A DNA stretch of 64,000 bases from Escherichia coli. Lineage in GTDB: Bacteria; Pseudomonadota; Gammaproteobacteria; Enterobacterales; Enterobacteriaceae. Position numbers: made by a program. Position 1 is the first letter of the stretch, and each line of letters opens with the position of its first letter. Shown in pieces: positions 45,601-48,600 of this stretch. The stretch lies in assembly GCF_003334815.1 (NCBI RefSeq), contig NZ_QOWO01000014.1; one strand, written 5' to 3'.

Positions 45601-48600
45601 TTTATCATTTACCAGAGGTAACACATTAACTCAGATGGAATTCACCATAATGGGGTATATGGTTTCTGGTTATAATCCATATCAGATTGCTGAAGTTCTG
45701 GATATGGATATCCGTAGCATCTACGCGTACAAGCAACGAATCGAAAAGAGAATGGGTGGTAAAATAAACGAATTATTTATTCGTTCACATTCGGTCCAAC
45801 ATTGATACTCAACGACCAGCCAGAATCATACTCTGTTTATACGGGCATTTATTGAAATGTCCGTATTTTATAAATAGGCCGTCCCCTCAAGAGTAAACAC
45901 CATAGTATTTAAAACCATCACACGAAAAATTCAGAAGCATTACGAAATATGAATTTACAAACAATAGTGGCATAAATGTTAACCATGTTAATTTACGTAA
46001 AGTTTTACGTTGCAACATTAAAGCCTCATTTCAATCATCATGATAAATATAAAATTAATATATATTTATGCCGTAAATACCAATATACTTAGCAAACTAT
46101 GTGATCTCCATTTCGATTGATTTAGTGTTTATTGACGTATGTACTGGATTATTAACGATAATATCGAGTTCTGGCCTGAGCACCGAAAATTAATATCGGT
46201 ACATAACGCCGATCTTAACGTCGTTCTGACAACGCCAGCCAGTCGATGTTTATCACTTCTACTTGAAGCTTTTCCTGATGTGGTTGCACAACAAGATTTT
46301 TTCACCAGAGTCTGGGAAGAAGAAGGTATGCGTGTGCCTACTAACACGTTATATCAGAACATATCCATTATCAGACGCGGATTTCGCGCTGTTGGTGATA
46401 CTACCCACTCGCTAATTGCAACCGTGCCGAGAAGAGGATTCAAGATCCATAATGACATTAACATACAAAATCATGTAATAAACTCGTCAACAGACGCACA
46501 TACACACAATGCCCCACCTGCCATAAAAGTTAATGCGGGATACAAAGAGAGCATTGGTGGCGCAAAGAATTTCAATAACAAAATCCTCAAACATATAAAA
46601 AGTCATCTAATTATGTTGAGCGCATTTGTCATAGGCGCATATTCTGCATATTGGCTATGGAATAATAATCAACCGAAGCCATTTTTCAAGGATTACAAGA
46701 CTGTTGCGGAAATTAATGGCTGCCATTTTAATGTAACAGAAGATACAATTGATGGGTTGAAAGAGTTCGATAAATATAAAACACGGATACTGGATTCGGG
46801 GATTAACTGTAAAAAACATCCGTGGTTATACTTCCCTCTTGCAAAATCCTCACCGGGGATGATTGTTATGGCATGCAATAAAAACTATAACCAACATGAA
46901 GTGGCAAACTGTTTAACCCTGTCTTACCGTGAGGTTAATCGTGATTGATTATAAAAAAAACTTATTATTTATTTTAGTTTTTATCAGTGGGTTTATTCTC
47001 TTCACTGTCTATTCTTACACTGCAGAAAAAATGATATATAACGAAACATGCACTGCAAATTGGGTAATTTTTAATGACCAGGGACGAGCAAATCTTACCA
47101 TCGACTTTATGTATAACAAAAAAAATAAAACAGGAACTGTTGCGTTGAGTGGAACCTGGCAACAAGGTAACAGAGAAAGTAAATCAATACGGCGAAATAT
47201 TGAATACACATGGATTGAAAACTATGACACAGCCCATTTAACATCAAAGAAAGTTAATAAGTTTGAGATTATGGATCAAGTTGATGATGATAGACTTGCA
47301 CAACTTATTCCTGATTTTTATGTCTTTCCAGAAAAAAGTGTAAGCTATAATATACTAAAGCAAGGTAAGCATGCTTTTATTTTGAGCATTGGTAACAGAG
47401 CAATAATGCATTGTGCAAGGTAAACTAAAATAGATAACAAAAAGATGGAACCTCGTTAATCATAAAACAATAAAATTAAATATTCTCGCAGTATATGGCA
47501 GTCTAAAGCATCAAAGATTTGATCAACATCTTTCATTTTAGACATCTCCTTGCAATGTAAAATATCATGTATCAACAACATCTGGTGCAAATCCATGAGT
47601 TGAACTCGACATTCATCTTAGCTCGATTATTATTCCTTCGTACAGTCGATGTAAACAATACAGAAAGAGGATTATTAAGAACCAGTTTACTCAGTGAATC
47701 AATAGAGGAAAGGACTAACGTTTCTTTAAAAGAATTGATTTCATCATCTGTTAAACTAAACTCATCATTGACAGATCGTGAGATATAACTGTTTTTAACT
47801 TTACTCTTTACGTTGACTTTATTGACAGAATTAACATTCACATATCTTGAATTTAATGTCCATGATGTTGTTTGCGTGAGAACATTCTCAGCATTAAGGA
47901 ATTTTTTTAACGGAATCCTTGGTTTCTTTTTCGAGTCCGAATTTACAATATCATGCATATAGACCATTTCATGAATCTGCGAAAATTCAATGTCCATTGT
48001 ATACCTCACATTTTTACCGTGACTCGATGTTACTGTTCAATAATCACCTTCCATCAATACTAAAATTAATACCCCTAATGTGCCGATAACAAATATAGTC
48101 ATTCTACGTAACGTCTCCATAAGGTGATATTTGACATTATCAGAAGCTGCGAATTCGGATTTTGCTCTAATCAAATGAGAGAAATGTAAAATGAAGCCAC
48201 GAAATATTAATAATAGCCTACCACTGCAACCATTAGTTCCTGATCAGGAGAACAAAAATAAGAAAAATGAAGAGAAATCCGTTAATCCAGTTAAAATCAC
48301 AATGGGGTCTGGTTTAAATTATATTGAACAAGAATCTCTTGGAGGAAAATATCTAACACATGATTTGTCAATAAAGATAGCGGATATTTCTGAAGAGATA
48401 ATTCAGCAAGCAATATTATCTGCTATGAGCATATATAAATTTTCGATAACAGATGATTTAATGAGTATGGCTGTAAATGAACTCATAAAACTGACCAAAA
48501 TAGAGAATAATGTAGACCTGAATAAATTCACTACTATATGCACAGACGTTCTATCCCCCCGCGTCACCAGACATAATAAAGAAAAAAACAAACGACATTC

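What the first reader, a model, noticed from the sequence alone, without database searches (positions are those of the whole stretch)
46139..47423. yqeI and yqeJ form a ToxR/ToxS-like pair with overlapping stop and start
yqeI encodes a cytoplasmic winged-helix DNA-binding domain, one transmembrane segment and a periplasmic domain (ToxR/CadC architecture). yqeJ starts at a GTG that overlaps the yqeI stop by 8 nt and encodes a single-pass membrane protein of ToxS-like size (160 aa). The overlap implies coupled expression, as for toxRS. This suggests a membrane-localised signalling pair at the left edge of the island.
Basis: inference. Interest (0 to 1): 0.4.

Follow-up and report, generated by a model that had tools for sequence, protein, structure and literature searches.

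The report
Known ToxR/ToxS-like YqeI–YqeJ sensor pair
yqeI and yqeJ really are an overlapping gene pair encoding a membrane-anchored transcription factor and a ToxS/VtrC-like partner protein, but this was already published in 2022, so the finding is correct and not new.

Summary
yqeI (46139-46948, 269 aa) and yqeJ (GTG 46941 to 47423, 160 aa) overlap by 8 nt, exactly as RefSeq annotates them in K-12 and other E. coli. A GAGG Shine-Dalgarno lies 6 nt upstream of the GTG. The same position is ATG in E. albertii and in Escherichia sp. E4742.

YqeI has an N-terminal OmpR/ToxR-type winged helix, and its best solved-structure sequence match is the V. cholerae ToxR DNA-binding domain. It has one uncharged stretch (155-179) and a C-terminal domain with four invariant cysteines.

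Of 57 related loci in Enterobacterales, 43 carry a YqeJ-family gene immediately downstream. It almost always overlaps the upstream gene, and 25 of the 43 have a start codon at exactly 8 nt of overlap.

Kinch et al. 2022 (PNAS) name YqeI/YqeJ as a VtrA/VtrC-ToxR/ToxS-like "co-component" system, orthologous to Salmonella MarT/FidL.

Minor additions from this work:
- The overlap is a family trait, although that paper lists YqeI/YqeJ as non-overlapping.
- O157:H7 strains carry an A8-to-A9 change just after the yqeJ start.

The ligand and the direct targets remain unknown.

The parts
46139..46948 (+). yqeI CDS (269 aa): membrane-anchored ToxR-type transcription regulator
   Evidence: ORF. RefSeq annotation. 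100% identical to K-12.
46220..46444 (+). [quoted passage not shown]
   Evidence: Pfam Trans_reg_C, E=4.1e-9. The best PDB sequence hits are the V. cholerae ToxR DNA-binding domain, 8b4b/8b4c, E=1.6e-7. Weak NCBIfam CadC hit.
46601..46675 (+). YqeI residues 155-179: single predicted transmembrane segment
   Evidence: The only uncharged stretch of 17 or more residues. KD maximum 1.35. Net +4 charge on the N-terminal flank. Homologues have a hydrophobic block at the same place.
46664..46945 (+). YqeI residues 176-269: periplasmic domain, predicted strand-strand-helix-strand-strand-strand, with invariant Cys195, 224, 246 and 258
   Evidence: Invariant Cys columns in a 25-sequence alignment. Secondary structure from the fused AF2 model.
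46931..46934 (+). GAGG Shine-Dalgarno for yqeJ, embedded in YqeI codons Glu265-Val266
   Evidence: Lies 6 nt upstream of the GTG. GAGG or GGAG is conserved in other Escherichia species.
46941..46948 (+). 8-nt overlap: yqeJ GTG start (46941-46943) through yqeI TGA stop (46946-46948)
   Evidence: A start codon at exactly 8 nt of overlap is present in 25 of 43 family loci.
46941..47423 (+). yqeJ CDS (160 aa): single-pass partner protein (Pfam PF27292 YqeJ_C on homologues)
46959..47024 (+). YqeJ residues 7-28: N-terminal transmembrane anchor
   Evidence: KD 2.26. The only uncharged stretch. AF2 predicts a helix over residues 2-30.
47031..47420 (+). YqeJ residues 31-160: periplasmic 8-stranded lipocalin-like barrel with invariant Cys37 and nearly invariant Cys158
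46953..46960 (+). A8 homopolymer in yqeJ codons 5-7, directly after the start
   Evidence: It is A9 in O157:H7 genomes, where RefSeq calls a TTG start with a 4-nt overlap.

Best explanation
yqeI-yqeJ is a two-gene 'co-component' transmembrane signalling cassette of the ToxR/ToxS and VtrA/VtrC kind, and the E. coli ETT2 orthologue of Salmonella MarT/FidL.

**Shown or predicted from sequence**
- YqeI sits in the inner membrane. Its OmpR/ToxR-type winged helix faces the cytoplasm, and a small disulfide-bonded alpha/beta domain faces the periplasm.
- YqeJ is anchored by an N-terminal helix and presents an 8-stranded lipocalin-like barrel in the periplasm.
- The two genes are read from one mRNA region in which the yqeJ start and its Shine-Dalgarno lie inside the last codons of yqeI.

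**Inferred**
- Ribosomes finishing yqeI re-initiate on yqeJ, giving co-ordinated synthesis at the same membrane site.
- By analogy with VtrA/VtrC and ToxR/ToxS, the YqeI periplasmic domain docks onto the YqeJ barrel.
- A small hydrophobic ligand, such as a bile-salt-like or lipid molecule, binds the barrel.
- Ligand binding stabilises or oligomerises the complex, so that the membrane-tethered YqeI binds promoters and changes transcription.

**Still unknown**
- The ligand and the direct targets are not known.
- A yqeI deletion in avian pathogenic E. coli lowers flagella, adhesion, serum resistance and colonisation.
- In K-12 the locus lies in H-NS/StpA-silenced DNA.
For: **Gene structure and annotation:**

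**Start codon:** ATG at the same position and a conserved SD in other Escherichia species.

**YqeI**
- Trans_reg_C over residues 28-102.
- Best solved-structure sequence hit is the ToxR DNA-binding domain, E=1.6e-7.
- One membrane segment.
- Four invariant periplasmic Cys.

**YqeJ**
- AF2 model with pLDDT 93.9: one TM helix plus 8 strands.
- An unbiased Foldseek search of 350,542 PDB chains ranks V. cholerae ToxS first, V. parahaemolyticus ToxS second and third, and VtrC fifth, seventh and ninth.

**Conserved pairing**
- 43 of 57 YqeI-related loci have a YqeJ-family ORF directly downstream.
- Overlaps are 1, 4, 8, 11 or 14 nt in most of them, and 25 of 43 have a start codon at exactly 8 nt.

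**Complex**
- An AF2 model of the two periplasmic domains joined by a 30-residue Gly/Ser linker gives pTM 0.74, with only the linker disordered.
- That value is higher than two freely tumbling domains would give. This is my inference, because no PAE was available.

**Literature**
- Kinch et al. 2022 classify YqeI/YqeJ in this superfamily and report that the periplasmic domains form a dimeric complex when co-expressed.
- The same classification appears.
Against: - No sequence-level link between YqeJ and ToxS or VtrC was found. Single-sequence and profile searches of PDB sequences found nothing, and Pfam gave no ToxS hit for any of 68 family members.
- Foldseek E-values are modest (7e-4) and sequence identity is 8-13%.
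- The fold search with the fused model did not retrieve the ToxR or VtrA periplasmic domain in its top 50. The similarity of the YqeI periplasmic domain therefore rests on secondary-structure order and on the published comparison.
- The Kyte-Doolittle score of the YqeI membrane segment is only 1.35.
- No ligand, direct promoter target, co-transcription or coupling experiment exists for this pair.
- The locus is silenced in K-12 laboratory conditions, and ETT2 in this window is riddled with pseudogenes.
Confidence: 0.85

Rival explanations
1. YqeJ acts mainly as a stabilising chaperone or anti-protease partner, as proposed for ToxS and TcpH, and not as the ligand sensor. YqeI or the membrane environment would then provide the signal.
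For: The fold is shared with ToxS. The review table in PMC10269533 describes the associated proteins as inhibiting proteolysis or stimulating heterodimer formation. No ligand is known.
Against: The barrel is equally close to VtrC, which binds bile salts inside the barrel (5kew). A barrel with a conserved disulfide suggests a pocket. The two roles are not mutually exclusive.
Confidence: 0.3
2. The pair is a decaying, functionally inert remnant of a dead secretion island. The ORFs persist, but nothing is sensed or regulated.
For: The ETT2 genes downstream are frameshifted or truncated. The K-12 region is used as a model of H-NS/StpA-silenced hairpin DNA. O157:H7 genomes carry a frame-altering A9 at the yqeJ 5' end. 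A K-12 yqeI deletion had no growth phenotype in one study.
Against: About 3600 of 5426 complete E. coli genomes keep the region at full length. The cysteines and the start geometry are conserved across genera. Escherichia cryptic clades keep yqeI-yqeJ-ygeH after losing all the T3SS genes. An APEC yqeI deletion has motility, adhesion, serum and colonisation phenotypes.
Confidence: 0.1
3. The GTG start is an annotation artefact. On this view yqeJ begins at the ATG at 47031, there is no overlap or coupling, and the product is a soluble 130-aa protein.
For: GTG starts are less common. Some database entries start at Met31 (P0005). Kinch et al. list YqeI/YqeJ among the non-overlapping cassettes.
Against: ATG occupies the GTG position in E. 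albertii and Escherichia sp. E4742. A GAGG SD lies 6 nt upstream. The hydrophobic N-terminal helix is conserved across 68 family members and modelled with high confidence. K-12 and RefSeq annotations use this start.
Confidence: 0.03

Closest known systems
[quoted passage not shown]
   Same: Same two-gene architecture. YqeI is 40% identical to the Salmonella regulator (P0135). The S. enterica diarizonae locus L020 has a YqeJ-family partner (HMM E=6e-52) with a start codon at 8 nt of overlap. The N- and C-terminal Cys pair in the barrel is conserved. Kinch et al. call YqeI/YqeJ the orthologue of MarT/FidL and GrvA/FidL a paralogue.
   Different: The island context differs (ETT2 versus SPI-3 or an O-island). 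The reported outputs differ: MisL for MarT, LEE for GrvA, and flagella, adhesion and serum resistance for YqeI in APEC. Pfam FidL_like (PF15941) hits only 5 of 68 YqeJ-family members, and only weakly. YqeJ homologues carry their own family, PF27292 YqeJ_C.
Vibrio parahaemolyticus VtrA/VtrC bile-salt receptor
   Different: Only 7-10% sequence identity, and no HMM-level similarity. YqeJ has a conserved disulfide, and the YqeI periplasmic domain has four invariant Cys, whereas VtrA has none according to Kinch et al.. Bile-salt binding has not been tested for YqeJ.
Vibrio cholerae / V. parahaemolyticus ToxR/ToxS
   Different: According to Kinch et al., toxR and toxS do not overlap. There is no detectable sequence homology in the periplasmic parts. 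ToxRS is a core-genome master regulator, whereas yqeIJ sits in a horizontally acquired, H-NS-silenced island.
CadC (one-component ToxR-like pH/lysine sensor)
   Same: An N-terminal wHTH followed by one TM segment and a periplasmic sensor. Weak NCBIfam CadC hit over residues 48-130 (E=3.4e-4, far below the cut-off) and a PDB CadC DBD hit at E=0.017.
   Different: CadC has a large periplasmic domain of its own and no overlapping lipocalin partner. YqeI is not a CadC equivalog (19.6 bits against a cut-off of 400).

Membership tests
ToxR-like transmembrane transcription regulators (ToxR/VtrA/CadC architecture) | N-terminal OmpR/PhoB-type winged helix DNA-binding domain without a receiver domain | tested here: met
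   Pfam Trans_reg_C over residues 28-102, E=4.1e-9. Best PDB sequence hits are the ToxR DBD, E=1.6e-7. The domain starts at the N-terminus of a 269-aa protein.
ToxR-like transmembrane transcription regulators (ToxR/VtrA/CadC architecture) | Single transmembrane segment between the DNA-binding domain and the C-terminal domain | tested here: met
   One uncharged stretch, 155-179. KD maximum 1.35. Positive N-terminal flank. Hydrophobic block conserved in homologues. This is prediction only.
ToxR-like transmembrane transcription regulators (ToxR/VtrA/CadC architecture) | Small periplasmic alpha/beta domain structurally like that of ToxR or VtrA | tested here: inconclusive
   The fused AF2 model gives strand-strand-helix-strand-strand-strand, and there are four invariant Cys. 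However, the Foldseek search of that model listed no ToxR or VtrA periplasmic chain in its top 50. The similarity is reported by Kinch et al..
ToxS/VtrC-like co-component partners (lipocalin-like fold superfamily) | Gene immediately downstream on the same strand, usually overlapping the regulator gene | tested here: met
   8-nt overlap. Conserved in 43 of 57 related loci.
ToxS/VtrC-like co-component partners (lipocalin-like fold superfamily) | Short cytoplasmic tail, one N-terminal TM helix, then a periplasmic 8-stranded barrel closest to VtrC/ToxS | tested here: met
ToxS/VtrC-like co-component partners (lipocalin-like fold superfamily) | Sequence-level membership of the ToxS or VtrC families | tested here: not met
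   No Pfam hit for YqeJ and no ToxS hit for any of 68 family members. Single-sequence and profile searches of PDB sequences found nothing. The resemblance is at fold level only.
ToxS/VtrC-like co-component partners (lipocalin-like fold superfamily) | Periplasmic heterodimer with the regulator's C-terminal domain | tested here: inconclusive
   The fused-chain AF2 model gives pTM 0.74, with only the linker disordered. This suggests a defined interface, but no PAE or coordinates were available. Co-expression complex formation is reported in PMC9214523.
ToxS/VtrC-like co-component partners (lipocalin-like fold superfamily) | Binding of bile salt or another hydrophobic ligand in the barrel | not testable with these tools
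   Needs biochemistry.
YqeJ/FidL family (Pfam PF27292 YqeJ_C; PF15941 FidL_like) | Profile match and a conserved Cys pair on the first and last barrel strands | tested here: met
   Close homologues, including one 99% identical, carry precomputed PF27292. Cys37 is invariant and Cys158 is present in at least 90% of 68 sequences. FidL_like hits only 5 of 68 members, weakly. The Pfam copy available to profile_search lacks PF27292.

The most novel reading that the evidence does not exclude
The stop/start overlap, with the partner's Shine-Dalgarno written into the regulator's last codons, may be a selected trait of the whole YqeI/YqeJ-FidL family that enforces co-synthesis of sensor and regulator. 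If so, the O157:H7 lineage would have broken or re-tuned this coupling through an A8-to-A9 slip five codons into yqeJ. That would leave YqeI with little or no partner and alter ETT2/LEE cross-regulation in that pathotype.
Probability: 0.2. Interest if true: 0.3.

Novelty: already known. Interest (0 to 1): 0.15.

Why it matters
The pair is one of the few ToxRS/VtrAC-type sensors in E. coli, including K-12. That makes it a tractable model for how these fast-evolving virulence sensors read host signals. The classification itself is already published, so this finding adds only confirmation and small details:
- The overlap is family-wide.
- O157:H7 strains carry a variant at the yqeJ start.
- The regulators are retained in clades that have lost the secretion system.

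The open questions are the ligand, the direct regulon, and whether YqeIJ drives ygeH. These need experiments.

Tried and rejected
**Searches that gave nothing useful**
- Pfam, NCBIfam and PHROGs scans of YqeJ gave no meaningful hit.
- Single-sequence and 68-sequence-profile searches of PDB sequences with YqeJ gave only chance-level hits. The ToxS/VtrC relation therefore cannot be shown by sequence.
- The Rfam scan of 44-50 kb found nothing.
- The promoter/terminator scan of 45.7-47.7 kb was not above the shuffled expectation (12 promoter-like sites against 8.9 +/- 3.3, and one terminator-like site inside yqeI). It gives no evidence for or against an internal yqeJ promoter or an operon terminator.
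- The fold search with the fused YqeI-peri/YqeJ-peri model only re-found ToxS and VtrC. It did not test the YqeI periplasmic domain.

**Ideas considered and rejected**
- Start at the upstream GTG 46929 (164 aa, 20-nt overlap): it has no SD and is not supported by the other species.
- Start at ATG 47031: it removes the conserved membrane helix.
- The A8 tract as a high-frequency phase-variation switch: not supported. 297 of 3636 genomes carry the O157-type junction and nearly all others carry the K-12 type, so it looks like a lineage-fixed change.

Full report
**1. Observation**

The window region is the left end of the E. coli ETT2 island.
- yqeI runs from ATG 46139 to TGA 46946-46948 (269 aa).
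- A GTG at 46941, in another frame, opens a 160-aa ORF that ends at 47423. The two ORFs share 8 nt.
- RefSeq annotates these exact limits in several strains and in K-12 MG1655.
- The 1285 nt are identical to MG1655.
- GC falls from about 0.45 to about 0.35 at roughly 45 kb. yqeH, yqeI and yqeJ are the first genes of the low-GC island, which continues into ygeG, ygeH and largely pseudogenised T3SS genes.

**2. Is the GTG start real?**

- A GAGG lies 6 nt upstream of the GTG.
- In E. albertii and Escherichia sp. E4742 the same position is ATG, and GAGG or GGAG is kept.
- The upstream GTG at 46929 has no Shine-Dalgarno.
- The next ATG, at 47031, would remove the only hydrophobic helix, which is conserved in 68 family members.
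- The start is therefore well supported, though it has not been verified experimentally.

**3. The proteins**

*YqeI*
- Pfam Trans_reg_C matches residues 28-102.
- The best sequence matches among all solved structures are the V. cholerae ToxR DNA-binding domain, at E=1.6e-7.
- There is a single uncharged stretch, residues 155-179, with a positively charged N-terminal flank.
- The C-terminal 94 residues contain four cysteines that are invariant in 25 homologues from Escherichia, Citrobacter, Kosakonia, Trabulsiella, Enterobacter, Yokenella and Salmonella.

*YqeJ*
- There is no hit in the available Pfam, NCBIfam or PHROGs libraries.
- Its close homologues carry a newer Pfam family, PF27292 'YqeJ_C'.
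- An exhaustive phmmer search of 1.84 billion cluster representatives found only 98 relatives at E of 1e-3 or better. The family is small and divergent.
- AlphaFold2 with a 68-sequence alignment gave pLDDT 93.9: a helix over residues 2-30, then eight strands and a short helix.

**4. Is YqeJ ToxS-like?**

By sequence it is not. Single-sequence and profile searches of all PDB sequences found nothing, and none of the 68 family members hits a ToxS Pfam model.

By fold it is.
- Foldseek against 350,542 PDB chains ranks V. cholerae ToxS (8alo_B) first. V. parahaemolyticus ToxS (8u2f) is second and third, and VtrC (5kew, 5kev, 8dml) falls within the top 13. Target-normalised TM-scores are 0.62-0.69. 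Classical lipocalins follow.

**5. Is the pairing conserved?**

- A scan of one genome per species with the YqeI alignment returned 57 loci.
- In 43 of them, an ORF matching a YqeJ-family HMM lies directly downstream.
- In 25 of those 43 there is a start codon at exactly 8 nt of overlap. Most of the others have overlaps of 1, 4, 11 or 14 nt.
- The overlap is therefore a family trait. Kinch et al. list YqeI/YqeJ among the few non-overlapping cassettes, which does not match the current K-12 annotation.

**6. Complex**

I joined YqeI residues 176-269 and YqeJ residues 28-160 with a 30-residue Gly/Ser linker and used 34 paired sequences from the loci.
- AF2 gave pTM 0.74, with only the linker below pLDDT 50.
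- Two unconstrained domains in a 257-residue chain would be expected to give a pTM near 0.5. The value therefore suggests a defined interface. This is inference, because no PAE or coordinates were available.
- The YqeI periplasmic part is predicted as strand-strand-helix-strand-strand-strand.
- The fold search of the fused model re-found ToxS and VtrC but no ToxR or VtrA periplasmic chain in its top 50. That point remains inconclusive here.

**7. Literature**

- Kinch, Cong, Jaishankar and Orth (PNAS 2022, PMC9214523) already list 'E. coli K-12 ECK2845 YqeI / ECK2846 YqeJ lipocalin' among VtrA/VtrC-like co-component systems. They call it the orthologue of Salmonella MarT/FidL and report that the periplasmic domains form a dimeric complex when co-expressed.
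- Later papers repeat this classification.
- A yqeI deletion in APEC reduces flagella, motility, serum resistance, adhesion and colonisation (reviewed).
- In K-12, the yqeG-ygeL fragment was used as model DNA for H-NS/StpA-organised repressive hairpins.
- A K-12 yqeI deletion had no growth phenotype in a study on mannitol regulation.

**8. Mechanism**

The best-supported model is a membrane co-component sensor.
- Predicted from sequence and models: a cytoplasmic wHTH, two single-pass anchors, and a periplasmic alpha/beta domain next to a lipocalin-like barrel.
- Reported in the literature: heterodimer formation.
- Inferred: translational coupling, ligand binding in the barrel, and ligand-dependent activation of DNA binding.
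- Unknown: the ligand and the direct targets.
- A cascade through the neighbouring HilA-like ygeH is a reasonable guess, by analogy with VtrA acting on VtrB. Escherichia cryptic clades keep yqeI-yqeJ-ygeH while lacking every T3SS gene.

**9. Verdict**

Interest is low.

The small additions are:
- the family-wide overlap;
- fast divergence of the pair, with YqeI 64-72% and YqeJ 55-69% identical between Escherichia species while the flanking YqeG is 96-98% identical;
- the O157:H7 A9 variant at the yqeJ 5' end.

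Noticed in passing
window 46953-46960 and 47118-47125; L065 1554-1562: yqeJ contains two A8 homopolymers. The first covers codons 5-7, directly after the start. O157:H7 genomes have A9 there plus a GTGA-to-GTGG change, and RefSeq then calls yqeJ from a TTG overlapping the yqeI TGA by 4 nt (159 aa, 'LIIKKNLLF...'). 297 of 3636 E. coli genomes with the region carry this O157-type junction. A microsatellite paper (PMC11186120) had noted the A8/A9 polymorphism in yqeJ between K-12 and O157. Whether YqeJ is still made in O157:H7 is unknown.
   Followed up: partly
L004 535-7554 and L005 77-4379 (Escherichia sp. E4742 and a related clade): In these cryptic Escherichia clades the island between yqeG and ygeR/xdhA is reduced to a yqeH remnant, yqeI, yqeJ and a YgeH orthologue (63% identical). 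There are no T3SS structural genes. The regulators outlive the secretion system, which hints that YqeIJ and YgeH work together or have targets outside ETT2.
   Followed up: partly
window 46139-47423 versus L002/L004: The pair evolves much faster than its flank. YqeG is 96-98% identical between E. coli and E. albertii or E4742, against 64-72% for YqeI and 55-69% for YqeJ. Within YqeI, the DNA-binding domain is 82-90% identical, the cytoplasmic linker about 30% and the periplasmic domain 67-78%.
   Followed up: yes
window 47456-47536 (- strand): A 26-aa ORF between yqeJ and yqeK is annotated in K-12 as the small protein yqeL (b4683) and as a hypothetical protein in other strains. It converges on the yqeJ 3' end, about 30 nt away.
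   Followed up: no
window 45113/45173-45805 (yqeH): yqeH, the gene upstream of yqeI, is a LuxR/GerE-type regulator whose homologues carry the newer Pfam family PF27348 (EcpR_N). A 333-nt, 31% GC intergenic region separates it from yqeI, so yqeIJ probably has its own H-NS-bound promoter region.
   Followed up: no
window 49000-64000; L063: The ETT2 island in this window resembles that of O157:H16 98-3133. ygeF, the lytic transglycosylase gene, ygeK, orgA, sctU, sctQ and the spaN/eivJ-like genes are frameshifted or truncated there. The island ends at ygeQ/tRNA-Gly, just beyond the window end.
   Followed up: partly
protein P0003: One database entry fuses the first roughly 140 residues of YqeJ to an SLT lytic-transglycosylase fragment (200 aa; E. 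coli E22 'o94'). This indicates a deletion joining yqeJ to the pbl/ygeJ region in some strains.
   Followed up: no
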